Assembly (NCBI GenBank): GCA_032430995.1
Contig: GCA_032430995.1_3952.1
DNA from: a phage
Reading direction: 5' to 3' (one strand)
DNA: 64,000 nt
In this document: positions 2,765 through 54,324 of the stretch, one piece after another
Layout of the letters: the number at the start of each line of letters is the position of its first letter
Position numbering within the stretch: the first letter of the stretch is position 1
Translations under genes and position numbers: made by a program
Notes under the pieces: generated by a model
Told to the model about the DNA's origin: nothing
The model's input: only the letters and a program-made list of their open reading frames with translations
Database searches by the model: none

Positions 2765-3874
2765 ATGACTACTAAAACTAAAGCACAGATTGACGCAGAA
2801 ATTTACAAACTGGTTAAAGAAGGTAAGCTGACTAAAACAGCTATTGCACAGAAATTTAATACTTCAACCCGTTCAGTCGGTCGTGCTGTAGAGCGTCATG
2901 AAGCAACCTTAAAAGGGAATAAGAAGGCAACTTCTACACCAGCTACGAAGTCTTTGAAACAAGTTGCTAAGACTTTTAAAAAGAAAGCTGGCAAACCAGT
3001 TGAAAAGGTTGTTAAAGATGCTGTACAGAAAGCTCCAGTAAATAAACTGCATGAAGCTATGCAGAAAGATGACAAGATTGAGTACATGATTACTGGTGAC
3101 TCTGTAATTATGACTTACGGTTCAGAGTCTGAAATTGTTGAGTCTACTCATCCGAACTATCAAGAGATTGTAGTTCATGTTGTGAAAGGTGAGTTTAAGA
3201 AAGCCTTTGAACTGATGAACATTCGTAAGTCTATCGAAAACTTCACTCAGGGTGCTATCACAATCAAAGGTGACAAACTATTCTACGGTGCTGTTGAGAT
3301 GCGTTCTACTCTGGTTGACCGTATTCTTCACATGATGAAGACTGGAGATAAAGGTTTTGAACGCCTTGTAATGTTCTTTGAAAAACTGATGGAAAACCCA
3401 TCTAAAGACTCTGTAGAACAACTTTGGGGCTTCGTATCTCACCTTGATGTTGAAATTGATGAAGAAGGCTACATCATTGGTTGGAAGAAAGTCTCTACTC
3501 GTGAAGGTAAGCTGGTTGACTCCCACACCTACAAAGTTCCTAACGATTTGGGTAACATTGTAGAGATGCCACGTTGGATGGTTGATAATAACCGTAACGT
3601 GACTTGCTCTCAAGGTCTTCATGTTGGTGCTTGGGATTATGTTCGTTGTTTCTCAGGTGATACAATTCTGAAGGTTCGTGTCCATCCACGAGATGTTGTA
3701 TCTGTTCCAACTGATTACAACGATATGAAGATGCGCTCATCTCGTTATGAAGTTGCAGCAATCGTTGATAATCAACGTAAAGTGTTGAAAGCATGGGATG
3801 GCAAGACTGAAGCTTTACATGTCATCGTTGGCACTGCTGGTGAACTCATCTCTCAACGTAAACGTGAAATCTAA
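2765..3874 (+). CDS. rIIB: rIIB-like protein
   Basis: 369 aa; C-terminal motifs LVDRIL, ENPS, TCSQGLHV, KVRVHPRDVVSVPTDYNDMKMR resemble T4 rIIB as recalled; sits directly after rIIA. Confidence 0.75.
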   Translation: MTTKTKAQIDAEIYKLVKEGKLTKTAIAQKFNTSTRSVGRAVERHEATLKGNKKATSTPATKSLKQVAKTFKKKAGKPVEKVVKDAVQKAPVNKLHEAMQKDDKIEYMITGDSVIMTYGSESEIVESTHPNYQEIVVHVVKGEFKKAFELMNIRKSIENFTQGAITIKGDKLFYGAVEMRSTLVDRILHMMKTGDKGFERLVMFFEKLMENPSKDSVEQLWGFVSHLDVEIDEEGYIIGWKKVSTREGKLVDSHTYKVPNDLGNIVEMPRWMVDNNRNVTCSQGLHVGAWDYVRCFSGDTILKVRVHPRDVVSVPTDYNDMKMRSSRYEVAAIVDNQRKVLKAWDGKTEALHVIVGTAGELISQRKREI

Positions 3875-8737: not shown

Positions 8738-8829
8738 TTGACTCTTTGAACGGGGTTATCTAGTATTTGCATCAACGGGGAGGGAATGACCTTCCCCACT
8801 AAATAAAGTCCTAAACTGGAGATTCAAAA
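8738..8829 (+). promoter_or_regulatory. early promoter + 5' stem-loop + conserved leader cassette (type A)
   Basis: TTGACT-17-TAGTAT, hairpin GGGGAGGGAATGACCTTCCCC, leader CCACTAAATAAAGTCCTAAACTGGAGATTCAAAAATG. Confidence 0.6.
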
Positions 8830-9210
8830 ATGGCATACCGTGCACCTAAATTCATCAACAAAGACAACTTTCGCAACGCACTGGAGAAGTCACTTGATGA
8901 GAATTTTAAAGGTAACGTTATTGTTGTTCACTCGTTCAATTTCAAGTATGATATTAACGGGAATAAAATCAACCATTACACGGCGACAATGCTAGATGGT
9001 ACTCTTTCAAGTGAAAAAGCCATTTTACATGCACTTGCTGGACGTGGTAAAAACCTGATAAGATGCGATAAGAGACGTTATCAGGGTGGCGCATATGGTT
9101 ACGATGATGCTGTTTATCATCTTGAAAATATGGGCTATCAAGTAGAAAAAGCTGGAGTGTCTCAAATAATCGGTAGTGATGGTTATGTAACAATCTTCAA
9201 AATTAACTGA
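8830..9210 (+). CDS. hypothetical protein (cassette gene)
   Basis: 126-aa ORF directly after conserved leader. Confidence 0.6.
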   Translation: MAYRAPKFINKDNFRNALEKSLDENFKGNVIVVHSFNFKYDINGNKINHYTATMLDGTLSSEKAILHALAGRGKNLIRCDKRRYQGGAYGYDDAVYHLENMGYQVEKAGVSQIIGSDGYVTIFKIN

Positions 9211-10300: not shown

Positions 10301-10389
10301 CACTGATTTTTAGATAGATTAAATTACACATCAACGGGGAGGGAACAACCTTCCCACTAAATAAAGTCCTTAAACTAGGAGATTCTAAA
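10297..10389 (+). promoter_or_regulatory. early promoter + stem-loop + leader cassette (type A)
   Basis: TTGACA-17-TAAATT, hairpin GGGGAGGGAACAACCTTCCC, conserved leader. Confidence 0.6.
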
Positions 10390-10662
10390 ATGTATACTAC
10401 TAACAATGGCCTCACTTTGAACGTCACACTACGTCACTATGTAGATGGTGTCATGCACTTTGAAGATTTACAAGCTGAACAACATATCTTAGATTGGCAA
10501 GTCGCAGGACTCCAAAAAACTGCTACGGGATACGGTAAAAAGATTCCAACTAGTTGGAAAGTTCACTATGAAGGACGTTTGCGCAGAATTTATCAAGATG
10601 TGCAAAGCAATAGCGCATCGAGTTACATTATAGTAAAAGGTGAAAAACTGCATTTAGTATAA
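10390..10662 (+). CDS. hypothetical protein (cassette gene)
   Basis: 90-aa ORF after conserved leader. Confidence 0.55.
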   Translation: MYTTNNGLTLNVTLRHYVDGVMHFEDLQAEQHILDWQVAGLQKTATGYGKKIPTSWKVHYEGRLRRIYQDVQSNSASSYIIVKGEKLHLV

Positions 10663-11160: not shown

Positions 11161-11252
11161 TTGACACTGATTTTTAGATAGACTAAATTACACATCAACG
11201 GGGAGGGAACAACCTTCCCACTAAATAAAATCCTTAAACTAGGAGATTCAAA
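11161..11252 (+). promoter_or_regulatory. early promoter + stem-loop + leader cassette (type A)
   Basis: TTGACA-17-TAAATT, near-identical to the 10297 copy. Confidence 0.6.
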
Positions 11253-11795
11253 ATGAAATGCTTTCACGGTACTACTCAAGAAAACTTTATCAACCTGATT
11301 AATAACGGTGATAAACCATCAGGTGTATGGAATTGTTCGGATATGGACGGCAATTTTTACGTGTACCCAGAAAATAAACTCTATGGTGATGATGAGGAAG
11401 AGATAGCATCGGAAGGTATCCAGCAAGCTCTAGGAAATGCCACTATCACGGCAGCTTTTCAGATGAAAACTCAAAATATTGTTATCTTAGAACTTGACAT
11501 TCCAGAGGATGAGCTAAATGATGATTATTCTTGTGATAACATGTCAAATATAGCAAGCTTTACAGAGTACTTTGATGTAAATTGGATTAAAAAGGTCTAT
11601 ACAACAGAGTTCAACGCTATGTATTCACCTTTTTGTCTCCCTTCACTGGATAACCCAAATTTGAATTATCTTGATGAAACATTGGAGCTACTTGCTAAAA
11701 GTATCCAACAATCCGACAGTATTCAGGTTTTTTGTGACATCATGGATACACTGACAGAAAACATTGTAGAGAGTGATTTAAAGGTCTTTTTCTAA
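11253..11795 (+). CDS. highly acidic hypothetical protein
   Basis: 180 aa; by eye about 34 Asp+Glu versus about 8 Lys and no Arg. Confidence 0.55.
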   Translation: MKCFHGTTQENFINLINNGDKPSGVWNCSDMDGNFYVYPENKLYGDDEEEIASEGIQQALGNATITAAFQMKTQNIVILELDIPEDELNDDYSCDNMSNIASFTEYFDVNWIKKVYTTEFNAMYSPFCLPSLDNPNLNYLDETLELLAKSIQQSDSIQVFCDIMDTLTENIVESDLKVFF

Positions 11796-12095: not shown

Positions 12096-12186
12096 ACAAG
12101 CCTGATAAAAGTCTGTAAATTACACATCAACGGGGAGGGAATGACCTTCCCCACTAAATAAAGTCCTTAAACTAGGAGATTCAAAA
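12093..12186 (+). promoter_or_regulatory. early promoter + stem-loop + leader cassette (type A)
   Basis: TAGACA-17-TAAATT, hairpin GGGGAGGGAATGACCTTCCCC, conserved leader. Confidence 0.55.
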
Positions 12187-12528
12187 ATGGCTTATGTAAC
12201 CGTAATTACCGATAAAGCTGGCTCATCTTGGTCAACTCAGGTTAGTGATAAGATGTCGCCTATGCAGTGCCTAAAATACTTTGAGCAGTGGAACAAAGGC
12301 GAGGATGTAAGCCCCTTTCAAGTGATGCAAATCATCCATACAGATAACGAAGGGAATAAAACGACCTTGAACAGTGAATACTACGCAAGCCGTTTTGAAA
12401 CGAGAAGTAAAACAATGAAGCTTTTACGTGAATCCGGCTATTCTCATATTGCCGCGCTAATCTGGGATGACCTGCTAAAAAGCCAGCGTATCAGCTATGT
12501 AAAACCTGAAAAAATATTCATCAGTTAA
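12187..12528 (+). CDS. hypothetical protein (cassette gene)
   Basis: 113-aa ORF after conserved leader. Confidence 0.55.
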   Translation: MAYVTVITDKAGSSWSTQVSDKMSPMQCLKYFEQWNKGEDVSPFQVMQIIHTDNEGNKTTLNSEYYASRFETRSKTMKLLRESGYSHIAALIWDDLLKSQRISYVKPEKIFIS

Positions 12529-13327: not shown

Positions 13328-13591
13328 ATGGAAAACGTAGAATTAACCACACTATTGCAGATTGCAACTGACAAAGAAGACGTAGCGTTGTTTCACCGTA
13401 TCGAAAGTGATTTGTTCAATGGTGAAATCATTAAAGAATCTTACGAAGTTGTCGGATTCAAAGATGGTAAAGCATTTGGCTTTTTTGACCTCGACAAAAG
13501 CAAAGCGGTTACAATGTACGATGTTCTATCTTGTGAAATTCTGACAAAATACAACGAAAAAAGGCTTGCAACCTACGCCAATATGCAGTAA
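13328..13591 (+). CDS. hypothetical protein (cassette gene)
   Basis: 87-aa ORF. Confidence 0.5.
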   Translation: MENVELTTLLQIATDKEDVALFHRIESDLFNGEIIKESYEVVGFKDGKAFGFFDLDKSKAVTMYDVLSCEILTKYNEKRLATYANMQ

Positions 13592-13658
13592 ATTACTAAT
13601 CAACGGGGAGGGAATGACCTTCCCACTAAACAAAGTCCTAAACTGGAGAATCTAAATT
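13566..13658 (+). promoter_or_regulatory. early promoter + stem-loop + leader cassette (type A)
   Basis: TTGCAA-17-TAAATT, hairpin GGGGAGGGAATGACCTTCCC, conserved leader. Confidence 0.55.
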
Positions 13659-13907
13659 ATGTCAACTATCCGCGTAACTGTTAATGCTTATGGCTGCCAT
13701 CAACTTGATGCAAAATTCGATATCGGTGGAACAGATAACACCTTTGACCTTATCAAAATGCTGATTCAGCAGGTGATACCAGATTATAACCCTACTGATG
13801 ACTTCTGGAAAGATGCCGTAAAAGAAGCCATAAACGAGGAATCTCACTACCATTATTGGGGTGACTTGATTATCTCTCTGTACTACAGCAAACAAGGTTA
13901 CAACTAA
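13659..13907 (+). CDS. hypothetical protein (cassette gene)
   Basis: 82-aa ORF. Confidence 0.5.
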   Translation: MSTIRVTVNAYGCHQLDAKFDIGGTDNTFDLIKMLIQQVIPDYNPTDDFWKDAVKEAINEESHYHYWGDLIISLYYSKQGYN

Positions 13908-13917
13908 TCGACGCAGC

Positions 13918-13970
13918 GGGGCTAAATAGCCCCAGATACCTGAAAAGCTCCTTCTCATAGGGGCTTTTTT
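13918..13970 (+). terminator. terminator region closing the plus-strand cassette block
   Basis: GGGGCTAAATAGCCCC hairpin, then GGGGC followed by T6. Confidence 0.5.
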
Positions 13971-13974
13971 ACGT

Positions 13975-15540
13975 CTATAAAGAGACTCTATACAGTCCCT
14001 TTCCTTTCCTTCCTAGAATCTATCCCACTAATTCGATAGAGACTATCTCATACCTTAAAAAGCAATAACTCTATAGTCTACTCTATAACCTCTTATCAAA
14101 TTAACTTAAATAAAAGCCCATAACCCGAAAGGGAAGGGCAACCACTAAAACGCTCTATAAAGCTCTATAACAACCTTATCAACCTAACTTAAGCAATCAT
14201 ATTAACCCACTCTAAAAAGCCCTTTATAGAGCTTCCTATAGCCTTAAAAGAATCTTATAAGGGTGTAGCCTTATAGGCTGGCTAGTATCTTGTGAATAAC
14301 TAAACAATCCCTTGATAGTCTCTAAAAAGTATGTTATAGGGGCTGTTAAGTTACTTTGAAGTTACGTGATAGATAGCTTAAAAGTTACGTAAATGCTAGC
14401 CCCCTTAACATTTTCTTAACAATTTCTTAACAATCCCTACATAGTTATGCTTTTAAGGCACTTGTTAGCAACTTGTTAGCCCCTTGTTAAATCTCTGTTA
14501 AGACCACGTAAAAGCCTTGTAAGAGTCTTTAGCATAGCCTTTAAAGCCTCTGTAAAGCCCTATAAAGAGGTGTCTGTATAGTTGGGGTGTAATTACTAGG
14601 AAGAGACTTAAAAGAGCTTACAAGGAGCTATAGAGAGCTTTTAAGAGGGCTATTTAGAGAATCACTAAGAGGGAAAGGGAACGATAAGAAAAGAGATAGT
14701 GACCATGTTAATAGCTTGTTAAAAAGATTAAACACTTGTTAGGAACTTGTTAATTATCCCTACAAAATAACTCTTTAAAATTAACTTGTTAGCTCTCGTT
14801 AGTTATCTGTTAAGATTCTATAAAGACTATTCAGCACTTGTTAGAAAACTGTTACAGCCTTGTTAGTTCTGTTAAGAATCTGTTAAGACTTTTGAAGGGT
14901 TGTTAAGAGCTTGAGAGAGTTGTTAAGAGATTGTTAAGGATATTTTAAAATTTTGCAAAGTACTTGTAAGGGAGCTGTTAAGGGCTACCAAGCAGATATA
15001 CATCTTCTACAGATATTTTTCAGTTCCTTCAAAGACCCTAAAAAATGACTTGATAGTCCTATTTTATAAAAATTTTAAAATTCTGAATAATTACCTAGAC
15101 AGTCTTTTAAAAATACAGGTAGAAACAGGCTTATAAGATACCTTGTTAGTACCGTGTTAGACCTTGTGAGATAAGGTCTGTAAAGATATTCCTGTTAAGT
15201 TTGTTAAAACAGTCTATATAGAGGCTTAGTATTTCCTAGTGAACACCTATAGAGGGTAACATAGCTAACCTAGAGATTAAGAGGTGTATAGGAGCTTCTA
15301 AGAGGGTGTAGAGAGATGGTTAAGGTGATTGTATAGGTTGTTAAGAAGGCTTGTTAGAAGAGTGTTTAGAGGGGCTATACAGAGGGGCTATTAAGACCAC
15401 TAGATAGATACTAAGATACTATATAGTACTATATAACTATATAGAGAGTAAGATTAAGAAGGTTGTTAAGAAGGGTAGATATTTTATTCACATATGATGG
15501 TGACCCAGCGGTTGGGACAACCGATAAATTTTATAAAAAT
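13975..15540. repeat. ORF-free region dense in degenerate short repeats
   Basis: no ORF of 60 aa or more in any frame; more than 20 copies of CTTGTTAG / TTGTTAAG / CTGTTAAG and CTATAAAG / CTATAG words; AT-rich tandem TACTATATA copies near 15410-15445. Confidence 0.7.
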
Positions 15541-15565
15541 TAAAAAGCCCCCGATTAAGGAGGCT
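15541..15565 (-). terminator. minus-strand terminator after ORF 15577..16200
   Basis: A5 then GCCCCC-GATTAA-GGAGGC hairpin on plus strand (hairpin plus T-run on minus). Confidence 0.5.
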
Positions 15566-15576
15566 CTTAAGATATT

Positions 15577-25481: not shown

Positions 25482-25558
25482 CTCTGTTTAGCTCAGCTTG
25501 GTAGAGCGTTCCGTTTGGGGCGGTAAGGCCGGAGGTTCAAGTCCTCCAACAGAGACCA
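25482..25558 (+). tRNA. tRNA-Pro (anticodon TGG)
   Basis: hand-folded cloverleaf; acceptor CTCTGTT/AACAGAG; T-loop TTCAAGT; CCA encoded. Confidence 0.7.
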
Positions 25559-25565
25559 AATTAAT

Positions 25566-25643
25566 GTTCCAGTGGACAAAATGGTAAAGTCACCACTCTT
25601 TCAAAGTGGATATTTGAGGGTTCAAATCCCTTCTGGAACGCCA
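25566..25643 (+). tRNA. tRNA-Glu (anticodon TTC)
   Basis: acceptor GTTCCAG/CTGGAAC; anticodon stem CCACT/AGTGG; CCA encoded. Confidence 0.7.
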
Positions 25644-25733
25644 GTTTTGACAGAAGACCAATTACAGCAAACTTAATCTACTCATCTGAAAGTTAATCGG
25701 ACAAAGAAGATATTTGGTCTGGTCATTAAGAAT

Positions 25734-25810
25734 TGCGGGTATAGAGAAAGGGCGTCTCACATGTCTCATTAGCATGGTATCGGCAGGTTCGACTCCTGCA
25801 CCCGCCTCCA
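25734..25810 (+). tRNA. tRNA with CAT anticodon (Met or Ile-lysidine), atypical
   Basis: T-arm GCAGG-TTCGACT-CCTGC; anticodon loop CTCATTA; 1:72 mismatch and 3-bp D-stem. Confidence 0.45.
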
Positions 25811-25893
25811 AATTTACAGAAGACCGTTTACAGCAATATTTATTAAATTTTTAGCGGAAAAATTGAAAGATACGGTCTGGTAATACTAAACAT

Positions 25894-25970
25894 GGTTAGG
25901 AAGCACATAAGGTATGTGCGGTCGCCTGTTAAGCGAATGGCACAGGGTTCGAATCCCTGACTAACCGCCA
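25894..25970 (+). tRNA. tRNA-Asn (anticodon GTT)
   Basis: T-arm CAGGG-TTCGAAT-CCCTG; anticodon loop CTGTTAA. Confidence 0.6.
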
Positions 25971-26039
25971 AATTTAGGAGAGAAGCGATTGCTCACCGAT
26001 TTGTAAGGTGCAAGTCCTTAGCCTGAATAGAAATCAAAT

Positions 26040-26127
26040 GTGTCGTTATCCCGTAGATGGTAGCGGTGGGGACTGTAAATCCCTTGTCATTGAGACTCGG
26101 TAGGTTCGACTCCTACACGGCACACCA
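26040..26127 (+). tRNA. tRNA-Tyr (anticodon GTA), class II
   Basis: long variable arm; anticodon loop CTGTAAA; T-arm GTAGG-TTCGACT-CCTAC. Confidence 0.65.
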
Positions 26128-26133
26128 AATAAA

Positions 26134-26211
26134 GGTTATGTAGTTTAATCTGGTTAAAATACTCCCCTGTCACGGGAGATGATGAGGGTTCAAATCCCTT
26201 CGTAACCGCCA
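26134..26211 (+). tRNA. tRNA-Asp (anticodon GTC)
   Basis: anticodon stem CTCCC/GGGAG, loop CTGTCAC. Confidence 0.7.
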
Positions 26212-26359
26212 ATTTTGAGAGGGCTATTTAGCCCCTCCCTTAAAGGGTTCTTACGAGTATTCTTTAAAGGAGCAGAAGACCAAATACAGCAAGTTATTTA
26301 AAATTTCAAGCCAATTTAATTTTGAAAAATTTAAAACTTGGTCTGGCTCAACAAATTTA

Positions 26360-26491
26360 CAGAAGACCGTTTACAGCAAAACTTAAACAATCTATTTCTC
26401 CGGTAAAGAAAAGGCGAAGGTTCGATTCCTTCACTCGGCAGATGTCGAGTTGGTGTAATGGTAGCACTTAAGATGATAAACAACGGTCTGG
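26360..26491 (+). ncRNA. candidate structured RNA with orphan tRNA-like T-arm (Y-RNA/YrlA-like hypothesis)
   Basis: flanked by AGACCGT / ACGGTCT arms; contains GAAGG-TTCGATT-CCTTC T-arm (26416-26432) without a full cloverleaf. Confidence 0.3.
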
Positions 26492-26640
26492 TAATTATCT
26501 TTGTAGATAAGTTATTAAGCTTACCTGTGAGTATGCGACCACAAAGGGTGAAAGGGTAAATTCTAGATTTAAACCCAAAAAGGCACATCGCTACAGACCT
26601 TAAGCAAGTCTGGGTAGCTTATCTACAAAGATAATTTAAT

Positions 26641-26716
26641 GGAAGTGTAGCAGAATGGTGATGCGGCAGACTTTTAATCTGACAGGCGATGGGTTCGAAT
26701 CCCTCCACTTCTACCA
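26641..26716 (+). tRNA. tRNA-Lys (anticodon TTT)
   Basis: acceptor GGAAGTG/CACTTCT; anticodon loop CTTTTAA; weak T-stem. Confidence 0.55.
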
Positions 26717-26794
26717 AATTCACCCTTAACTGAGAAACACCTGCGCGGCTGGAAACACCCACTCAACAGTTTCTCTAACTAGGGTACTTATTCT

Positions 26795-26871
26795 GGTTCA
26801 GTCGCAGATAAGGTAATGCAAGGGTCTCATAAGCCCTATGAATGTGGGTTCGATTCCCATCTGAACCTCCA
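26795..26871 (+). tRNA. tRNA-Met (anticodon CAT)
   Basis: acceptor GGTTCAG/CTGAACC; anticodon stem AGGGT/GCCCT, loop CTCATAA. Confidence 0.65.
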
Positions 26872-26872
26872 A

Positions 26873-26948
26873 GCTGGTATAGTTAAGAAGGTTATAACAC
26901 TCCCCTGATAAGGGAACATCGGTGGTTCGATTCCACCTACCAGTACCA
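26873..26948 (+). tRNA. tRNA-Ile (anticodon GAT)
   Basis: T-arm GGTGG-TTCGATT-CCACC; anticodon loop CTGATAA. Confidence 0.65.
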
Positions 26949-26963
26949 ATTTCAATAAAGTTG

Positions 26964-26992
26964 TTGACATTGAGATGTGACTACTTTATAGT
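26964..26992 (+). promoter_or_regulatory. internal sigma70-like promoter within tRNA array
   Basis: TTGACA-17-TATAGT. Confidence 0.55.
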
Positions 26993-27194
26993 AACCTTAG
27001 TTTTCGTTGCGTAGCGTCTATTTTGCAAATTTAAAATAAATGCAAACGACAATGTTTTTCTGGCAGTAGCTTGATAGGCTAAACACCAGTGAGGTCTTCC
27101 AATCCCTCATCAAAGAATTTGGCGTACTCGCCCACGGTATGATTAATAAGGTGGGCATCTTTAAGGGCTTTCTAAGAGAGTCTTTAAAGATAAT

Positions 27195-27271
27195 GCACCC
27201 TTAGTTCAATTGGATAGAGCAACGGTCTTCTAAATCGTTAGTTACAGGTTCGAATCCTGTAGGGTGTACCA
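27195..27271 (+). tRNA. tRNA-Arg (anticodon TCT)
   Basis: D-arm GTTCAATTGGATAGAGC; anticodon loop CTTCTAA; T-arm ACAGG-TTCGAAT-CCTGT. Confidence 0.7.
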
Positions 27272-27413
27272 AATAGTTAGCAGATTACTTAGACGGCCTT
27301 AGCGGGTCTTCCTGTAGGGAGGTGGTCTGTATCTCATGTTTTCCAGAACATGTAAATAATCTGAGAAGGAGCTTGACAGTGTTGAGATAACAGGGTAAGC
27401 TTCGAATTATAAT

Positions 27414-27496
27414 ATGGGACGATGTTAAGACTCTAAGGCATGAGCAACGGCCTCCAAAACCGTTTCAAAGGGGTTCAACTCCTCCGTCCCATGCCA
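27414..27496 (+). tRNA. tRNA-like gene, possible Trp (anticodon CCA), atypical D region
   Basis: acceptor ATGGGAC/GTCCCAT; loop CTCCAAA; D region about 6 nt longer than canonical. Confidence 0.35.
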
Positions 27497-27509
27497 AAGT
27501 CTTATTAGG

Positions 27510-27597
27510 GGTAGGTAGCGGCTAATGGTAGCCAAACTGTCTTGAAAACAGTTGCCACTGTAGAGATACGGTGAGGGTTCGACTCCTTTACTTACCG
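27510..27597 (+). tRNA. tRNA-Ser (anticodon TGA), class II
   Basis: anticodon stem ACTGT/ACAGT, loop CTTGAAA; long variable arm; no CCA encoded. Confidence 0.65.
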
Positions 27598-27853
27598 CCT
27601 AATAAGATTTACTCCGTCCATGCTTGTTCGCATTGTCGGTTTATCCCTCGTGTATTGTCGTACACTGTCAAAGCACCTAGTAGGTGTCACGGAGAAGAGA
27701 TAATATCAAGCTCTCCAAAGGTTCTAGTCACCGGATTAAACAAGACTATGCAAAGACCTATTTAGGTCTTTTTAGAGGGCTTCTAAGGTTATTAGTCGCT
27801 TGTTGTGGAACCTTGTTGCTTAGGTTCTTAGAAGTTCTCTAAAAAGATTTAAT

Positions 27854-27931
27854 GGGAGATTGACGGTAATTGGTAAACCTACCATCCTTAGAAGTTGGTG
27901 TTTGAGGGTTCGAATCCCTTGTCTCCTACCA
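27854..27931 (+). tRNA. tRNA-like gene, anticodon uncertain (best fold gives TAG)
   Basis: acceptor GGGAGAT/GTCTCCT; T-arm GAGGG-TTCGAAT-CCCTT; anticodon stem has a mismatch. Confidence 0.4.
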
Positions 27932-27938
27932 AATTAAT

Positions 27939-28014
27939 GCAGGTGTAGCAAAATGGTTATGCGGCTGACTCTTAATCAGTAAGACGATGGGTTCAATTCC
28001 CTCCACCTGTACCA
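27939..28014 (+). tRNA. tRNA-Lys (anticodon CTT)
   Basis: anticodon stem GCTGA/TCAGT, loop CTCTTAA; T-arm similar to Lys(TTT) copy. Confidence 0.5.
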
Positions 28015-28020
28015 AACATT

Positions 28021-28096
28021 GGGGATGTAGTTTACATGGTTAAAACATAAGTTTTGCAAACTTAAGTACAGGGTTCAATTCCCTGCTTCTCCACCA
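28021..28096 (+). tRNA. tRNA-Ala (anticodon TGC)
   Basis: D-stem GTTT/AAAC; anticodon stem TAAGT/ACTTA, loop TTTGCAA. Confidence 0.6.
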
Positions 28097-28102
28097 ATTA
28101 GT

Positions 28103-28177
28103 GCATCCATAGTTTAAACGGGAAAATTACAGTCTTCCAAACTGAGGTTGAGGGTTCGATTCCCTCTGGATGCTCCA
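28103..28177 (+). tRNA. tRNA-Gly (anticodon TCC)
   Basis: acceptor GCATCCA/TGGATGC; loop CTTCCAA; T-arm GAGGG-TTCGATT-CCCTC. Confidence 0.65.
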
Positions 28178-28183
28178 AACAAT

Positions 28184-28260
28184 GCTGCTTTCGTATAATT
28201 GGCTATTACACATCCCTTGTAAGGATGGAAATGCAGGTTCGAGTCCTGTGAGCAGCACCA
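28184..28260 (+). tRNA. tRNA-Thr (anticodon TGT)
   Basis: anticodon stem CATCC/GGATG, loop CTTGTAA. Confidence 0.7.
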
Positions 28261-28356
28261 ATTCAGAGGTCAAGTGAAAGACCGCTTTGAGTCAACTGAA
28301 GACCGTAACAAATACCACGGAGTTGAGTTAGCGGCACAACTTCAGACCTCTTTCAT

Positions 28357-28431
28357 ACTCGCTTAGTTTATATGGTAAAACATCACCCTTACAAGATGAA
28401 GAAAAAGGTTCAAGTCCTTTAGTGAGTACCA
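28357..28431 (+). tRNA. tRNA-Val (anticodon TAC)
   Basis: T-arm AAAGG-TTCAAGT-CCTTT; loop CTTACAA. Confidence 0.6.
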
Positions 28432-28432
28432 T

Positions 28433-28510
28433 GTTCCAGTATCCCAATTGGCAGAGGATGCAAGCTCAAACCTTGTATTAGTGACGGTTCGAATCCGTCT
28501 TGGAACACCA
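28433..28510 (+). tRNA. tRNA with CAA anticodon (Leu-reading), short variable arm
   Basis: anticodon stem GCAAG/CTTGT, loop CTCAAAC; T-arm GACGG-TTCGAAT-CCGTC; 75 nt. Confidence 0.5.
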
Positions 28511-28515
28511 ATTTT

Positions 28516-28591
28516 GCAGGATTAGTTCAAATGGAAAGAGCAACAGTCTACGAAGCTGTTAATAGGGGTTCGAATCCCTTATCCTGCGCCA
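28516..28591 (+). tRNA. tRNA-Arg (anticodon ACG)
   Basis: perfect acceptor GCAGGAT/ATCCTGC; loop CTACGAA. Confidence 0.75.
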
Positions 28592-28608
28592 GATAAAAAG
28601 GTGATACT

Positions 28609-28851
28609 ATGCAAACATTAACAGTAGTTGAACATGAAAACTGTGAGAGTATTGAGTTTGTCAGGGTCATTGGTGTTGAACACCACATTTTCTTAAAAGT
28701 GGGATACTTATGCGACCCCGCTAGAGTAGAAAGATTTATACGTGATTGTTTTGGTGGTAGACATCTGAAGAGTGTTATTTTTGAGACAGTTTTACCAGAA
28801 GGTTTAGAAACGAATAATAACATTTACCTCCTTACGAGGATTAGACAATGA
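28609..28851 (+). CDS. hypothetical protein embedded in tRNA array
   Basis: 80-aa ORF with AAAGGTGA RBS. Confidence 0.5.
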   Translation: MQTLTVVEHENCESIEFVRVIGVEHHIFLKVGYLCDPARVERFIRDCFGGRHLKSVIFETVLPEGLETNNNIYLLTRIRQ

Positions 28852-29405
28852 GATACTTAAAGTATGCTTCATGGATTTTCTTAGCTTTGTTAGAGCCATT
28901 TGCAGCAATCTTAGCAGTTATCTTAGCACCTTTTGTAGTTCCATTCTACAGTGAGAAGAAAGGACACTTACCTTTCGGGTTCAGATGGATGGAGACATAT
29001 GACAACCCAATTGATGGTGATGAAGGTCACGTTAAAAGATGGGCTAATATTAGATGGGTTGGTAAACTAGGTGTCTACATGCAAAGAGTCGGATGGCTCT
29101 GGAGAAACAAAGCTTATAACTTCTCTTACCATGTATTAGGAAGAGATGTAAGAGATGTTACTAAGTGGAAAGGTAATATCAACGTAAGTTCTAACCCTGA
29201 AGATAATCAGACTGGTTATCTCCTAATGTGGAACAGTAATGCTTGGGGATTATTCGCTTTTATCCCATCAATTAAAGTCTTCGGTAAACAGTTTTACTGG
29301 AGAATTTATGTTGGATGGAAACTTAAAAGTGTTGTCCCAGAAGAAAGAGCATTCTCAAGGGAAAGAGTTATGTTGGCATTCTTTATTCATCCACTGAGAA
29401 AGTAA
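28848..29405 (+). CDS. hypothetical membrane protein (Trp-rich) embedded in tRNA array
   Basis: 185 aa; N-terminal hydrophobic helix; ATGA start/stop overlap. Confidence 0.5.
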   Translation: MRYLKYASWIFLALLEPFAAILAVILAPFVVPFYSEKKGHLPFGFRWMETYDNPIDGDEGHVKRWANIRWVGKLGVYMQRVGWLWRNKAYNFSYHVLGRDVRDVTKWKGNINVSSNPEDNQTGYLLMWNSNAWGLFAFIPSIKVFGKQFYWRIYVGWKLKSVVPEERAFSRERVMLAFFIHPLRK

Positions 29406-29413
29406 AGATTTAA

Positions 29414-29489
29414 AGGGGATTAGTTTACAAGGTTAAAACCTCGGTCTTTGAAATCGAAGAAGTTGGTTCAATTCCAACATCCCCCGCCA
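29414..29489 (+). tRNA. tRNA-Gln (anticodon TTG)
   Basis: loop CTTTGAA; unpaired 1:72 (A:C); T-arm GTTGG-TTCAATT-CCAAC. Confidence 0.6.
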
Positions 29490-29491
29490 AT

Positions 29492-29570
29492 GCTCCATTA
29501 CTCCAATTGGCAGAGAGGCCAGACTTAAAATCTGTGTTATGTATCGGTTCGAATCCGATATGGAGTACCA
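29492..29570 (+). tRNA. tRNA with TAA anticodon (Leu-reading), short variable arm
   Basis: loop CTTAAAA; D-arm homologous to the 28433 tRNA. Confidence 0.5.
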
Positions 29571-29575
29571 AATTT

Positions 29576-29651
29576 AGCGGTATAGCATAACTGGCAATGC
29601 AGCAGTCTCTGAAGCTGTCCTATTAAGGTTCAAATCCTTATGCCGCTGCCA
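29576..29651 (+). tRNA. tRNA-Gln (anticodon CTG)
   Basis: acceptor AGCGGTA/TGCCGCT; D-stem GCA/TGC; loop CTCTGAA. Confidence 0.5.
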
Positions 29652-29682
29652 CTTCTAAGGATTCTTACGAGAGTCCTTAAAT

Positions 29683-29758
29683 GTGGCCTTATCATAAATG
29701 GTAATGACCCATGCTGTGAACATGGTCTATACGGGTTCAAATCCCGTAGGTCACCCCA
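29683..29758 (+). tRNA. tRNA-His (anticodon GTG)
   Basis: anticodon stem CCATG/CATGG, loop CTGTGAA; discriminator C; no encoded G-1. Confidence 0.7.
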
Positions 29759-29763
29759 ATTTA

Positions 29764-29840
29764 TAGTCCAAGTAGCTTATATGGTTAAAGCGCGTGTCTG
29801 AAAAACATGAGAAGAGGGTTCAAATCCCACTGGACTACCA
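29764..29840 (+). tRNA. tRNA-Phe (anticodon GAA), boundaries uncertain
   Basis: anticodon stem CGTGT/ACATG, loop CTGAAAA; acceptor register ambiguous. Confidence 0.5.
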
Positions 29841-29856
29841 ATTTCAAAGGTGCTTA

Positions 29857-30591
29857 ATGAAAGAGATGACAGAACAAGGTAAGGAGATTTTCAATCTCTT
29901 AAAAACCGGTAAAGGGTTTTCTAACCCCCTTATTACTGGTGCAGCAGTTCTCGGTGGAACCGTAGCTGCCTCTACATCACTTGTAAGCTCTATTAGCTCT
30001 GTATCAGACCCTACAGTAAAGGATAAGCTTGTTGCTGCTGGACTTACAACAGTTCTGCTTAACAGCTTTACCACGAGTCTGACAAGCACTACATCAACCA
30101 CCAAAACACTAACAGATTACGGTCAAAAGTCCATTGATGAGTTTTCATCACGTATGCAGGTAGCAAAAGGTTACTCTAATGTTATGGGTGCAGCAGGTGA
30201 ACAAGTTGGCTGTACACCATTTAGTGGTATTATGGGTGTTGCTACAGAGTATGGTCAAAAAGCTATTGATACGATTAACAGTGCACTAGACGGTGTTAAT
30301 GGTGTGTTAAGTGACTTACAAGACGCTATTGACAAAGGTCTTGATACTATTTCTGATTTAGCTAACCAAGCTGTTAGTAAGATTAATGAAGGTATCTCAA
30401 AGATTACAGCTTATGCAGATGAAGTTGTGCAGATGATTGAAGAAGAAGCTGCTCTTATTGCAGAGTACCTTAAAACGAATATCAATGGGTTCTTAGCAGG
30501 TATCTTACCAGACTGGTTTGATGATGCTTGTAAAACTGGTGTAATTGACACTATTGCAACACCAGAAATGAAGAGCGCATTACAGAAATAA
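29857..30591 (+). CDS. hypothetical Ser/Thr-rich protein
   Basis: track ORF 29794..30591 trimmed to ATG 29857 (MKEMTEQ) because the 5' extension overlaps tRNA-Phe. Confidence 0.5.
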   Translation: MKEMTEQGKEIFNLLKTGKGFSNPLITGAAVLGGTVAASTSLVSSISSVSDPTVKDKLVAAGLTTVLLNSFTTSLTSTTSTTKTLTDYGQKSIDEFSSRMQVAKGYSNVMGAAGEQVGCTPFSGIMGVATEYGQKAIDTINSALDGVNGVLSDLQDAIDKGLDTISDLANQAVSKINEGISKITAYADEVVQMIEEEAALIAEYLKTNINGFLAGILPDWFDDACKTGVIDTIATPEMKSALQK

Positions 30592-30592
30592 T

Positions 30593-30685
30593 GGAAGATT
30601 AACCCTAAAAGGTAAGGGAGCAGTTTGCTAAACTGCCAGTAGCTGAGAAATCGGTGTACCAGTTCAAGTCTGGTATCTTCCTCCA
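30593..30685 (+). tRNA. tRNA-Ser (anticodon GCT), class II
   Basis: perfect acceptor GGAAGAT/ATCTTCC; anticodon stem GCAGT/ACTGC, loop TTGCTAA; long variable arm. Confidence 0.7.
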
Positions 30686-30689
30686 ATTT

Positions 30690-30765
30690 GAATCCGTGAC
30701 AGAAATGGCTATGTACCTGTCTGCAAAACAGGTTTATAAGGGTTCGAGTCCCTTCGGATTCTCCA
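30690..30765 (+). tRNA. tRNA-Cys (anticodon GCA)
   Basis: perfect acceptor GAATCCG/CGGATTC; anticodon stem CCTGT/ACAGG, loop CTGCAAA. Confidence 0.75.
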
Positions 30766-30987: not shown

Positions 30988-31188
30988 ATGAGCGAGACCG
31001 TTTATAAAGAACTTTATGAAGCTAATAAGAAGCTAGAATTTATGCAGAATACTATCATGGCAATTGCAGACAGATTATCTGTAGCAACAGGTATTGATAT
31101 TAAAGAAGCGTCTATGGATGCACTTCTTGATGCTGTTGATGCAAAGTTCGAAGTTAAGAAAGAAGAGACTGCTACAGACTCTGAATAA
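30988..31188 (+). CDS. hypothetical small acidic protein upstream of terminase
   Basis: 66-aa ORF. Confidence 0.45.
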   Translation: MSETVYKELYEANKKLEFMQNTIMAIADRLSVATGIDIKEASMDALLDAVDAKFEVKKEETATDSE

Positions 31189-31209
31189 TTCTATTTGCGG
31201 AGGTGCTTA

Positions 31210-32811
31210 ATGGACTTAAATGCTGTTAAGCAGAAGCGAGTGGAAGATGTTAGGAAAGTCCTAGCTGGAGAGTTGGGGCTTTCTGATGAAGTAAAAGAAA
31301 TTATCAAATCATTCGGTAAAGACCCCTCTAAATTCCTTCCAACTCAAATTCTGACTTTATTAAGATACACCCCAGACCAAGTTAGACTTATCTTCAAATT
31401 GATGACTGATAAGAACTATGTAGCCCCTCAGCCGGGTTCTCAAGAGGTCTTTTTAAATACTAATGCTGACTTGGTTCTCTATGGTGGTGCTGCGGGTGCT
31501 GGTAAGACTGCTGCATTGTTAATGGACTCTTTAAGGTTTATTGATGACCCTAATTATAATGCTGTATATTTCCGTCGAAATACAACACAGCTACAAGGTG
31601 GTTTGTGGCCTGCTGCAAAGAAACTATTTGGTAAGTTTGGTGGGGTTCCTCACGAGCAGAAGATGACTATCACATTCCCTTCTGGGGCAACTATCAAGTT
31701 TACCTATCTAGAGCTTGAAAAGCACGCTGAAGGTCATCAGGGTATTGAGTATTCAGCTATTTACTTTGACGAAGGTACTCACTTCTCTGCTTCACAGATT
31801 TCATACCTACAGACTCGTCTACGTTCTGGGGCTGAAGGTGATTCATACATGAAGATTTCTATGAACCCAGACAGAGACCACTTTATTTACGATTGGGTAG
31901 AACCATTCTTAGATGAAGAAGGTTACCCAGACCCTGAAAAGTGTGGTCGTATTCGTTGGTATGTAATGAATGATGGTGTTATGGTTTCTGATTGGGAGAG
32001 AGACAAGATTCTTGAAATGTTTCCTCTTGAGATTCCTCAAACATATACATTCATCTCTGGTACGATTGATGATAACCCAATTCTTGACTTCTTAGAACCT
32101 AAATATCGTGGTAAGTTGGAAAACAACACCCCTGTAAACGTTGCAAGACTTCGTTTCGGTAACTGGAAGGCTCGTGCAGAAGGTTCAAACTATTGGCAAA
32201 GACAATGGTGTGAAATTGTTGATTCACTCCCAGAAGATGTATTCGATGTCAGAGCATGGGACTTAGCAGCAACTTTACCATCTGAGATTAACCCTAACCC
32301 AGACTGGACAGCAGGTGTTAAGATGGGTAAATCTAAAAAAGACGGTTGCTATTATATCATTGATGTAGTAAGATTTAGAGATAGACCCTCTGGAGTCGAA
32401 ACACAAATTAATTTGACTGCTGAAAGTGACGGTAAGCGAACTGGTATTTTTATCCCTCAAGACCCAGGCGCTGCTGGTAAATCCTACGCAACATCCCTCA
32501 TCAGGAAACTTGCCGAGAAAGGTTATCGAGCAAGAGCTAAACCAACAAATAAAGACAAAGTTACCCGATTTGCGGGGTTTTCTGCTGCTTCTGAAGCTGG
32601 ACTTGTAAAAGTCTTGAGAGGTAGTTGGAACGAAGCTTACTTTCAAGAACTTGAAGGTTTTTGTGGTGATGGTAAAACTAAAGATGACCAAGTGGATGCT
32701 ACCAGTGATGCTTTCAACAGTCTTAACGAAGTTAAATTATTCAAGCCACCATCAATGGGTGCTCACACAGACTTAGTGAGAGGAAACCCATATGAGGGGC
32801 TTAGACGTTGA
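31210..32811 (+). CDS. terminase large subunit
   Basis: Walker A-like LYGGAAGAGKT; start set at ATG 31210 after GGAGG RBS. Confidence 0.75.
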   Translation: MDLNAVKQKRVEDVRKVLAGELGLSDEVKEIIKSFGKDPSKFLPTQILTLLRYTPDQVRLIFKLMTDKNYVAPQPGSQEVFLNTNADLVLYGGAAGAGKTAALLMDSLRFIDDPNYNAVYFRRNTTQLQGGLWPAAKKLFGKFGGVPHEQKMTITFPSGATIKFTYLELEKHAEGHQGIEYSAIYFDEGTHFSASQISYLQTRLRSGAEGDSYMKISMNPDRDHFIYDWVEPFLDEEGYPDPEKCGRIRWYVMNDGVMVSDWERDKILEMFPLEIPQTYTFISGTIDDNPILDFLEPKYRGKLENNTPVNVARLRFGNWKARAEGSNYWQRQWCEIVDSLPEDVFDVRAWDLAATLPSEINPNPDWTAGVKMGKSKKDGCYYIIDVVRFRDRPSGVETQINLTAESDGKRTGIFIPQDPGAAGKSYATSLIRKLAEKGYRARAKPTNKDKVTRFAGFSAASEAGLVKVLRGSWNEAYFQELEGFCGDGKTKDDQVDATSDAFNSLNEVKLFKPPSMGAHTDLVRGNPYEGLRR

Positions 32812-54245: not shown

Positions 54246-54324
54246 TCCCTTGTTGACTGATTGTTAAGATGGTGTTAATATTCTTTATAGGTATTCTCAC
54301 CATCTTGGCTGATGAGGTGATTAA

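What the first reader, a model, noticed from the sequence alone, without database searches (positions are those of the whole stretch)
13975..15540. 1.6-kb ORF-free region saturated with degenerate short repeats, between convergent terminators
No ORF of 60 aa or more exists in any frame across about 1.6 kb, which is exceptional in this otherwise tightly packed genome. The region holds more than 20 copies of related 7-9-mers (CTTGTTAG, TTGTTAAGA, CTGTTAAG) and CTATAAAG / CTATAG words, clustered at 14455-14500, 14735-14935, 15135-15215 and 15330-15480, plus AT-rich stretches (15050-15110) and tandem TACTATATA copies (15410-15445). It sits exactly where the plus-strand early block (terminator 13918-13970) meets the minus-strand block (terminator 15541-15565). 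Iteron array plus AT-rich unwinding element is the classic origin architecture; alternatives are a partition/packaging site, a protein-titration array or a long noncoding transcript.
Basis: partly seen in the sequence, partly recalled or inferred. Interest (0 to 1): 0.7.

Follow-up and report, generated by a model that had tools for sequence, protein, structure and literature searches.

The report
Phage chromosome ends: terminal repeat region
The gene-free, repeat-filled 1.6 kb is where the linear chromosome of this Felix O1-like phage begins and ends: a 591-bp direct terminal repeat plus its flanks. This was already mapped in close relatives, so it is most likely a DNA-packaging and end-forming site, not a replication origin.

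Summary
Window 13959-15576 is the longest stretch without an ORF of 60 aa or more. It holds 29 TGTTAR words (2.9 expected), mostly spaced 11 bp apart, and lies between two convergent terminators.

The window is a Felixounavirus. Window 14399-14989 is homologous, with the same boundary sequences, to the short direct terminal repeat (DTR) of close relatives:
- The DTR is present at both ends of the ZX4221, Ro111lw and Pr103Blw records.
- It was determined experimentally in UAB_Phi87 (608 bp; published sequence matches window 14407-14991).

So the region is the concatemer junction: right-end flank, DTR, left-end flank.

Details I did not find described:
- The whole 1.57 kb has an 11-bp periodicity.
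- Indels among relatives come in about 11-bp units.
- The two DTR edges carry mirrored, invariant TAGCCC(CC)TTAACA words.
- The iteron and its layout persist in Erwinia phage M7.

These point to a phased protein-binding lattice that guides terminase cutting and DTR duplication. That role is inferred, not shown.

The origin reading gets little support. There is no initiator gene and no DnaA-box cluster, and GC skew simply follows gene orientation.

The feature's identity is already known. Interest is low to moderate.

The parts
13918..13969 (+). Two hairpins ending the plus-strand gene block. The second (13942-13969) is an intrinsic terminator with a T-run.
   Evidence: RNA fold, -28.5 kcal/mol. 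A homologous terminator is annotated in AYO145A.
13975..14398 (.). Unique non-coding flank next to the right chromosome end. It is pyrimidine-rich on the + strand and holds five CTCTATA words, a GC hairpin at 14116-14140 and a long inverted repeat at 14152-14245.
   Evidence: Lag-11 autocorrelation is 0.36 against a background of 0.268. Parts are 0.8-0.9 conserved across genera.
14399..14989 (.). Direct terminal repeat (591 bp). It appears once here, as in a concatemer or a collapsed assembly, and is present at both ends of the virion DNA.
   Evidence: The first 613, 591 and 581 nt of the Ro111lw, ZX4221 and Pr103Blw records equal their last nt and align to exactly these boundaries. The experimental UAB_Phi87 DTR sequence corresponds to window 14407-14991.
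14397..14410 (+). Left boundary word TAGCCCCCTTAACA. The cut lies between 14398 and 14399. It is the mirror image of the right boundary word.
   Evidence: The TAGCCCCCTT core is identical in all 11 aligned phages of three genera; two phages (SUSP1, Sf13) read TTTACA in place of TTAACA. Boundary position.
14404..14434 (-). Three inverted-orientation iterons (CTTAACA) spaced 11 bp apart, just inside the left DTR edge.
   Evidence: Two or three of the copies are kept in Felix O1, SUSP1, Mijalis, Silverhawkium and Sf13, and two copies in Erwinia phage M7. Phage heid has one extra 11-bp unit.
14460..14501 (+). Four forward iterons (CTTGTTAG/CTGTTAAG) spaced 11 bp apart.
14706..14982 (+). Main forward iteron field of 14 TGTTAR copies, including the 6.6-copy period-11 array at 14870-14938. 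This is the most widely conserved part.
   Evidence: Window 14900-14960 is the only stretch still detectable by BLAST in Erwinia, Hafnia and Pectobacterium Ounavirinae.
14976..14989 (+). Right boundary word TGTTAAGGGCTACC. The cut lies between 14989 and 14990, followed by AAGCAGATATACA.
   Evidence: GGGCTACCAAGCAGATATACA is invariant in all 11 aligned phages. Boundary position.
14990..15540 (.). Unique non-coding flank next to the left chromosome end. It is purine-rich on the + strand. It holds an AT-rich stretch at 15053-15100, seven more forward iterons (15144-15469), three TATAGAG words and the TACTATATAG tandem at 15417-15444.
15543..15568 (-). Intrinsic terminator ending the minus-strand gene block.
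   Evidence: A homologous terminator is annotated in AYO145A.
31195..32811 (+). Large terminase subunit, the enzyme expected to cut at the DTR boundaries. It lies outside the finding but belongs to the system.
   Evidence: PHROG 979 and Pfam Terminase_6N/6C. It is 100% identical to TerL of H12 and 99.8% to TerL of ZX4221; the ZX4221 record carries the DTR at both ends and the H12 record starts exactly at it.

Best explanation
Shown by homology to mapped relatives: the window comes from a Felix O1-like myophage (Felixounavirus), and the ORF-free region is where its linear virion chromosome begins and ends. Window 14399-14989 is the short exact direct terminal repeat (DTR). Window 13975-14398 is the non-coding flank of the right end, and 14990-15540 is the non-coding flank of the left end. 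In replicating concatemers, and in a collapsed assembly like this window, the three parts are contiguous and form the concatemer junction. The gene blocks on both sides are transcribed towards the junction and stop at terminators.

Inferred: the 11-bp-phased TGTTAR iterons, and probably the CTCTATA words of the outer flanks, are binding sites for an oligomeric phage protein. This would be a functional small-terminase equivalent, which has not been identified in this phage group. Binding on one face of the helix would mark the junction. The outermost iterons at the two DTR edges are mirror images, each inside an invariant TAGCCC(CC)TTAACA word 6-8 nt from the end. Two oppositely oriented complexes could therefore direct the large terminase to nick opposite strands 591 bp apart. 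Strand-displacement synthesis between the nicks would then duplicate the DTR during packaging, as in the T7 model (established knowledge). After infection the DTR allows circularisation or concatemer formation by recombination or annealing.
For: Taxon and conservation:
- 257 phage records match the region, nearly all of them Felixounavirus or its sister genera in the Ounavirinae.
- The gap of about 1.6 kb between the same two genes is kept in Felixounavirus, Suspvirus and Mooglevirus. A shorter one is kept in Kolesnikvirus and in phage Arno162.

Ends:
- The Ro111lw record starts at window 14399 and ends at 14989, with identical 613-nt ends.
- ZX4221 has a 591-nt exact DTR and Pr103Blw a 581-nt one that is annotated as a DTR. 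Both share the same boundary sequences.
- The H12 record starts at the same base, and the GE_vB_7A record ends within 2 nt of the right DTR boundary.
- PhageTerm DTR calls are published for Ro111lw (613 bp) and Pr103Blw (581 bp).
- UAB_Phi87 has a 608-bp DTR determined by Bal31 digestion, restriction mapping and run-off sequencing. The published sequence starts AACATTTTCTTAACAA and ends GTTAAGGGCTACCAA, which corresponds to window 14407-14991.
- Predicted SpeI end fragments are 2747 and 4435 bp, against 2819 and 4322 bp reported.
- TerL here is 100% and 99.8% identical to TerL of H12 and ZX4221.

Iterons tied to the ends:
- In the whole ZX4221 genome, TGTTAR clusters and 21 of 23 11-bp pairs lie at the two ends.
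- Iteron columns are more conserved than other columns: 0.875 against 0.729 across genera, and 0.933 against 0.704 inside the DTR.
- The boundary words are invariant or nearly so across three genera.
- Erwinia phage M7 has a 444-bp DTR with the same layout, although almost everything else has diverged.
- Lag-11 autocorrelation has z = 8.1. Indels are quantised at 11-12, 22-25 and 33 bp.
Against: - No read-level or wet-lab end mapping exists for this particular phage. The DTR is assigned by homology.
- No small terminase or other iteron-binding protein is identified. The 66-aa ORF upstream of TerL is acidic and has no domain hit. Published work also reports only a large terminase.
- The run-off boundaries differ from the PhageTerm-type boundaries by 8 nt and 2 nt. 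The reported SpeI fragments differ from prediction by 72-113 bp.
- The periodic lattice spans 1.57 kb, far more than any characterised pac or cos recognition site needs.
- The AT-rich stretch and the flank hairpins have no assigned role.
- A second function, such as an origin or end protection, is not excluded.
Confidence: 0.75

Rival explanations
1. Replication origin: the iterons bind a phage initiator, and the AT-rich stretch at 15053-15100 is the unwinding element. This could operate in addition to the region being the chromosome ends.
For: - Many phased direct repeats.
- An 87.5% A+T stretch lies 60-110 bp from the DTR.
- Two one-mismatch DnaA boxes at 14291 and 15484.
- The region is conserved across genera.
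Against: - The units are 11 bp and number about 30, spread over 1.1 kb. This is unlike the 4-8 iterons of 17-22 bp in lambda, P1 or plasmid origins (established knowledge).
- No initiator-like or DNA-binding domain is found in the flanking genes.
- DnaA boxes are not significantly enriched and there is a single IHF-like site.
- Transcription converges here. Cumulative GC skew follows gene strand and peaks here instead of reaching a minimum.
- The iteron arrangement mirrors the two mapped DTR boundaries, which an origin does not require.
Confidence: 0.1
2. A binding array for a non-terminase protein acting on the chromosome ends. Possible roles are protecting the incoming ends from host exonucleases, pausing or anchoring DNA during ejection, or condensing the junction. 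Terminase itself would recognise only the invariant boundary words.
For: - The lattice is much longer than known terminase recognition sites and extends about 500 bp beyond the DTR on each side.
- A second word family, CTCTATA, is arranged in a largely mirrored way in the outer flanks.
- Relatives are reported to lack a RecBCD inhibitor.
Against: - No candidate protein has been found.
- No Chi site lies near the ends; the single window copy is at 40383.
- The tight link between the outermost iterons and the cut positions favours a role in cutting.
Confidence: 0.1
3. A long non-coding transcript, or small or recoded protein genes, lie across the region.
For: - Some records annotate small hypothetical proteins here.
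- Some 150-nt windows in the flanks fold better than mononucleotide shuffles, with z down to -5.
Against: - There is no excess of promoter-like sites: 10 found against 7.7 +/- 3.2 expected.
- Rfam gives no match above chance.
- The two ORFs above 30 aa carry stops or frameshifts in relatives, and one straddles the physical chromosome end.
- There is no 3-nt periodicity, and indels come in 11-bp rather than 3-bp units.
- The iteron-rich DTR core shows no structure signal.
- Terminators face into the region from both sides.
Confidence: 0.03
4. Functionless slippage-prone filler between the two terminators. Only the two cut sites would matter.
For: Unit-sized indels show frequent slippage.
Against: - Iteron columns are markedly more conserved than spacer columns.
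- The motif and its orientation pattern survive in Erwinia phage M7, where the surrounding sequence is no longer alignable.
- The region is as conserved as the neighbouring genes across genera.
Confidence: 0.02

Closest known systems
Short direct terminal repeat of Felix O1-like phages (UAB_Phi87 608 bp, experimental; Ro111lw 613 bp and Pr103Blw 581 bp, PhageTerm)
   Same: The sequence is homologous (86-94% identity). It lies in the same gap between the same genes and has the same boundary words. TerL is identical or nearly identical.
   Different: Nothing substantive. The length differs by gain or loss of units of about 11 bp. The published descriptions I read give the length and sequence of the DTR but do not mention its internal iterons, the 11-bp lattice or the mirrored edges.
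T7/T3/SP6-type concatemer junction: short exact DTR flanked by arrays of degenerate short repeats (from my own knowledge: Dunn & Studier 1983; Chung & Hinkle 1990)
   Same: Both have an exact non-permuted short DTR in non-coding DNA, with degenerate short repeats around it. In both, the DTR is duplicated during packaging from concatemers.
   Different: - The DTR here is 3-4 times longer.
- The repeats lie inside the DTR as well as outside it, are phased at 11 bp, and are mirrored at the two edges.
- Genes on both sides are transcribed towards the ends, whereas T7 has early promoters at its left end.
- The host virus is a myovirus with a T4-type TerL fold (Terminase_6N/6C) and no recognisable TerS.
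- No sequence homology was tested or is expected.
Terminase recognition sites built from phased short repeats: P1 pac hexamers, SPP1 pacL/pacR boxes, lambda cosB R-sites (my own knowledge)
   Same: Short repeated words sit on both sides of, or next to, the cleavage site, with helical phasing consistent with wrapping around an oligomeric small terminase.
   Different: Those sites are 100-250 bp with 3-7 repeats and produce headful or cohesive ends. Here about 30 repeats are spread over 1.1 kb, with two cut sites 591 bp apart that yield an exact DTR. The binding protein is unknown.
Iteron-type replication origins (lambda ori, P1 oriR, plasmid oriV)
   Same: Direct repeats lie next to an AT-rich stretch.
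   Different: The units are 11 bp rather than 17-22 bp, and there are many more copies. There is no adjacent initiator gene, no DnaA-box cluster and no origin-type skew switch.
ParR-parC type centromeres (plasmid R1: ten 11-bp iterons bound head-to-tail by a ribbon-helix-helix protein; my own knowledge)
   Same: Both have 11-bp head-to-tail iterons in runs. This is a useful structural analogy for how a small protein could coat such DNA.
   Different: No parM/parR-like genes lie nearby. A virulent phage has no known need for partition. The arrays here are linked to the chromosome ends.

Membership tests
Short exact direct terminal repeat / concatemer junction of a DTR-packaging phage | Virion DNA has fixed, non-permuted ends, with the same sequence at both ends. 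| tested here: met
   Met by homology, not by data from this isolate. Three relatives carry exact 581-613-nt repeats at both record ends, with boundaries aligning to window 14399 and 14989. The experimental DTR of UAB_Phi87 corresponds to 14407-14991.
Short exact direct terminal repeat / concatemer junction of a DTR-packaging phage | The boundary (cut-site) sequences are conserved in the query. | tested here: met
   GCTA|GCCCCCTTAACA and GGGCTACC|AAGCAGATATACA are present in the window. The right word is identical in all 11 aligned phages; the left word differs at one or two bases in two or three of them.
Short exact direct terminal repeat / concatemer junction of a DTR-packaging phage | The large terminase belongs to the lineage that makes such ends. 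| tested here: met
   TerL is 100% identical to that of H12 and 99.8% to that of ZX4221. A published TerL tree places the Felix O1 group in its own DTR cluster.
Short exact direct terminal repeat / concatemer junction of a DTR-packaging phage | Direct demonstration of ends in this phage: read-start peaks, doubled coverage, or Bal31 sensitivity. | not testable with these tools
   No reads or DNA of this isolate are available.
Terminase recognition site made of phased repeats (pac/cosB-like) | Repeated words adjoin the cleavage site, with helical phasing. | tested here: met
   The outermost iterons lie 6-8 nt from each boundary. Spacing is 11 bp, and lag-11 autocorrelation has z = 8.1.
Terminase recognition site made of phased repeats (pac/cosB-like) | The repeats are bound by the small terminase subunit and required for packaging. 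| not testable with these tools
   No TerS is identifiable. The ORF upstream of TerL is a 66-aa acidic protein with no domain hit. Literature reports only a large terminase.
Iteron-type replication origin | There is an array of direct repeats plus an adjacent AT-rich unwinding element. | tested here: inconclusive
   Both are formally present. However, the unit length (11 bp), copy number (about 30) and spread (1.1 kb) are atypical, and the arrays track the DTR edges.
Iteron-type replication origin | A cognate initiator gene lies next to or overlaps the iterons. | tested here: not met
   The ten flanking ORFs match only PHROGs of unknown function. The five of them also scanned against Pfam have no domains.
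Iteron-type replication origin | Host-factor sites (DnaA boxes, IHF) are clustered. | tested here: not met
   Two one-mismatch DnaA boxes and one IHF-like site are found, which is not significant.
Iteron-type replication origin | There is a strand-composition switch of origin polarity, or replication initiates here. | tested here: not met
   Cumulative skew follows gene orientation and is maximal here. Initiation mapping is not testable with these tools.
ParR/parC-type centromere | The iteron array lies next to parM/parR-type genes. | tested here: not met
   No such domains are found in the neighbouring genes.
Structured non-coding RNA (any Rfam family) | There is a match to a covariance model, or a promoter with a conserved structure. 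| tested here: not met
   The only hit is a chance-level one (E = 0.25) on the terminator. There is no promoter excess.

The most novel reading that the evidence does not exclude
The 1.57-kb, roughly dyad-symmetric lattice of 11-bp-phased words spanning the concatemer junction is coated by a so-far unidentified phage protein unrelated to known small terminases. That filament, not a compact pac site, would define both DTR boundaries. It might also protect or tether the chromosome ends. This would explain how Felix O1-like phages, which lack a recognisable TerS, choose exact ends.
Probability: 0.2. Interest if true: 0.55.

Novelty: already known. Interest (0 to 1): 0.25.

Why it matters
Practical value:
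- It fixes the annotation. The natural first base of this genome is window 14399, and the 1.6-kb gap is the packaging and chromosome-end region. It should not be filled with small hypothetical genes, as several GenBank records do.
- It marks sequence that must be kept intact when engineering or rebooting Felix O1-like therapeutic and diagnostic phages.
- It is a caution that 'iterons plus an AT-rich patch' in a phage is not diagnostic of an origin.

Scientific value: the mirrored, invariant boundary words and the conserved 11-bp iteron lattice give a concrete, testable handle on how a myovirus with a T4-type large terminase and no recognisable small subunit makes exact short terminal repeats.

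Tried and rejected
- **Literature on the region.** I searched for an origin, non-coding region or transcriptome description in Felix O1-like phages. Nothing was specific. The Felix O1 and wV8 genome papers do not discuss the region. The PhageMaP Bas63 paper gives no data on it.
- **Promoters.** The sigma-70 promoter scan shows no enrichment.
- **Rfam.** Only a chance-level hit on the terminator.
- **Small ORFs.** They are not conserved.
- **DnaA, IHF and Chi sites.** Not enriched.
- **RNA-structure z-scores.** Only mononucleotide shuffles finished; the dinucleotide-shuffle script timed out. Flank signals are explained by terminators and palindromic words and were not pursued as RNA.
- **Iteron-binding candidate.** The flanking genes and the ORFs upstream of TerL have no informative domains. 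The 66-aa ORF is acidic, so I did not spend homology or structure searches on it.
- **IMG/VR scan.** The right-boundary word found 28 more relatives, but the tool does not report the position within the contig, so it says nothing about ends.
- **GC skew as an origin test.** It reflects gene orientation only.
Full report
**What the window is.** The flagged 1.7 kb matches 257 phage records at up to 92% identity. Nearly all are Felixounavirus (Felix O1-like myophages of Escherichia, Salmonella and Shigella) or their sister genera in the Ounavirinae. The window also carries the 26-tRNA cluster typical of this group and a T4-fold large terminase at 31195-32811.

**Checking the observation.**
- Window 13959-15576 (1618 nt) is the longest stretch without an ORF of 60 aa or more. 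Only the tRNA cluster comes close.
- That is not improbable for non-coding DNA of this composition: 41% of shuffles also lack such an ORF. It is still exceptional in a genome this tightly packed with genes.
- The 3-nt coding periodicity is absent.
- The two ORFs above 30 aa are disrupted in relatives, and one of them spans a physical chromosome end.
- The repeat words are real. TGTTAR occurs 26 times on + and 3 times on -, against 2.9 expected (P about 1e-19).
- Pairs spaced exactly 11 bp occur 12 times in the window against 0.12 expected, and 10 of them are here.
- TRF reports five period-11 arrays and the TACTATATAG tandem.
- CTCTATA/TATAGAG has 10 of its 14 window copies here.
- The AT-rich patch (87.5% A+T at about 15053-15100) and both convergent terminators are confirmed.

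**What it is.**
- Phage Ro111lw has a published PhageTerm DTR of 613 bp. Its GenBank record starts at the base that aligns to window 14399 and ends at the base that aligns to 14989. Its first and last 613 nt are identical.
- ZX4221 (591-nt exact repeat) and Pr103Blw (581 nt, annotated 'short direct terminal repeat region', published) share exactly the same boundary sequences. These are ...AATGCTA|GCCCCCTTAACA... on the left and ...TGTTAAGGGCTACC|AAGCAGATATACA... on the right.
- The H12 record starts at the same base, and the GE_vB_7A record ends within 2 nt of the right DTR boundary.
- For UAB_Phi87 the ends were determined experimentally by Bal31 sensitivity of two SpeI fragments and by run-off sequencing, giving a 608-bp DTR.
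- The sequence printed in that paper's Figure S1 begins AACATTTTCTTAACAA and ends GTTAAGGGCTACCAA. This corresponds to window 14407-14991, within 8 nt and 2 nt of the other boundaries.
- Placing the DTR by homology in the UAB_Phi87 record predicts SpeI end fragments of 2747 and 4435 bp, against the reported 2819 and 4322 bp.
- The window's TerL is 100% identical to that of H12 and 99.8% to that of ZX4221.

I therefore read the region as three contiguous parts:
1. The right-end flank, 13975-14398.
2. The DTR, 14399-14989.
3. The left-end flank, 14990-15540.

Together they form the concatemer junction as it appears in a collapsed assembly. On the natural chromosome, both neighbouring gene blocks are transcribed outward towards the ends and stop at terminators.

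**Anatomy beyond what I found described.**
- The iterons are specific to the ends. In the complete ZX4221 genome, TGTTAR clusters occur only in the terminal 1 kb at each end, and 21 of 23 11-bp pairs lie there.
- The consensus is (C)TTGTTA(A/G)(G)(A).
- Twenty-one of the 29 copies lie inside the DTR. Three inverted copies sit just inside the left edge. All other copies point the other way and end in a dense array just inside the right edge.
- The outermost copy at each edge is part of a mirrored word: TAGCCCCCTTAACA on the left, and TGTTAAGGGCTA on the right, which is TAGCCCTTAACA on the other strand. Both virion ends therefore begin, 5' to 3', with (GGTA)GCCC(CC)TTAACA.
- These boundary words are invariant or nearly so in 11 phages from Felixounavirus, Suspvirus and Mooglevirus.
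- Iteron columns are more conserved than the rest: 0.875 against 0.729 across genera, and 0.933 against 0.704 inside the DTR.
- Erwinia phage M7 (Kolesnikvirus) shares only a 60-nt BLAST-detectable patch with this region. It still has a 444-bp DTR with two inverted TTAACA words 11 bp apart at its left edge, a forward TGTTAAG array at its right edge, and ...AG|ATATACA-type sequence at the right cut.
- The periodicity is not confined to the iterons. All three parts show lag-11 autocorrelation (0.36, 0.45 and 0.36 against 0.268 +/- 0.015; z = 8.1 overall, with harmonics at 22 and 32-33).
- Indels among relatives are quantised at 11-12, 22-25 and 33 bp. One example is an extra 11-bp unit at the left edge in phage heid.
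- The flanks are compositionally mirrored, pyrimidine-rich on the left and purine-rich on the right. CTCTATA lies on the left and its complement mostly on the right.

**How it most likely works.**
- Shown: this is the DTR and chromosome-end region.
- Inferred: the phased words are binding sites for an oligomeric protein that coats one face of the DNA and marks the junction.
- Inferred: the mirrored outermost sites position the large terminase to nick opposite strands at the two boundaries. Strand-displacement synthesis then duplicates the 591 bp during packaging, as in the T7-type model (established knowledge).
- Inferred: after injection the DTR supports circularisation or concatemer formation.
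- The binding protein is unknown. No small terminase is recognisable here or in the literature.

**Rivals.**
- *Origin.* It has only the formal resemblance in its favour (repeats plus an AT-rich patch). There is no initiator gene, no DnaA/IHF cluster, atypical iteron size and number, convergent transcription, and skew that merely follows gene strand and peaks here. It cannot be excluded as a secondary function without replication mapping.
- *Non-terminase end-binding protein.* Possible roles are end protection or ejection control. This would explain why the lattice is so much larger than known pac or cos sites, but it has no direct support.
- *Non-coding RNA or hidden genes.* These are disfavoured.
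- *Functionless filler.* This is contradicted by the selective conservation of the iterons.

**Comparison with known systems, and novelty.**
- The region is a member of the Felix O1-group short DTR, which has been mapped experimentally and is annotated in GenBank. Its identity is therefore already known.
- It works like the T7/SP6 concatemer junction and like repeat-built terminase recognition sites (P1 pac, SPP1 pac, lambda cosB). It differs from these in its length, its 11-bp lattice, its mirrored edges and the lack of a known TerS.
- It resembles iteron origins and ParR/parC centromeres only in form, and the defining features of both were tested and not met.
- The internal architecture does not appear in the papers I could read. 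It is a modest, testable addition.

**Verdict.** The origin interpretation is not supported. The packaging-site alternative is supported. Interest is 0.25.

Noticed in passing
whole window 1-64000; also L007+L008 (ZX4221, complete genome) and all fetched Ounavirinae loci: GATC is completely absent. There are 0 sites in 64 kb against 183 +/- 13 expected, 0 in the entire 89,258-bp ZX4221 genome, and 0 in every fetched locus of five Ounavirinae lineages. CCGG, CGCG, GCGC and GGCC are also 4-8-fold depleted. This suggests strong selection against Dam/MboI-type and other 4-base sites.
   Followed up: partly
window 8770-8840, 10320-10395, 11184-11260, 12115-12190, 13587-13660: A leader of about 75 nt recurs before at least five plus-strand early genes. 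It reads ATTACACATCAAC, then a GGGGAGGGAA..ACCTTCCCC hairpin, then ACTAAATAAAGTCCTTAAACTAGGAGATTCAAAAATG. It probably represents a promoter-proximal 5' stem-loop plus ribosome-binding site cassette. The Felix O1 paper lists related 57- and 39-bp intergenic repeats.
   Followed up: partly
window 30988-31188 (+), just upstream of TerL at 31195-32811: No small terminase gene is recognisable. The only ORF directly upstream of TerL encodes a 66-aa, strongly acidic protein of unknown function (PHROG 4397, no Pfam hit). This agrees with published remarks that Felix O1-like phages show only a large terminase.
   Followed up: partly
window 14116-14140 and 14152-14245: A conserved GC-rich hairpin (GCCCATAACCCGAAAGGGAAGGGC) and a long imperfect inverted repeat (22-nt arms, 82% complementary) lie in the right-end flank, 150-280 bp before the DTR. 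Both fall in the most conserved blocks of that flank (0.92 across genera). Their role is unknown.
   Followed up: partly
L001 (phage heid) about 3520-3540, aligned to window 14434; also window positions 14450, 14759, 14825, 15353, 15387: Copy number of the 11-bp units varies between close relatives by insertions and deletions of 11, 12, 22-24 and 33 bp. This accounts for the reported DTR lengths of 581, 591, 608 and 613 bp.
   Followed up: yes
window 30294-30310 and 54262-54278: These are the only two TGTTAR-N5-TGTTAR pairs outside the terminal region. They are isolated and probably due to chance.
   Followed up: no
window 25482-30765: A cluster of 26 tRNA genes lies on the plus strand, including two tRNA-Met, three tRNA-Leu and both tRNA-Gln isoacceptors.
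   Followed up: no
records ULIM9, LMP25/33/34, H12, UAB_Phi87 (for example L018 219-326 and 554-715; L019 6018-6313): Several GenBank records annotate 2-4 small 'hypothetical proteins' inside the DTR and its flanks. The ORFs checked here are not conserved, and one crosses the physical chromosome end, so these are likely over-calls.
   Followed up: partly
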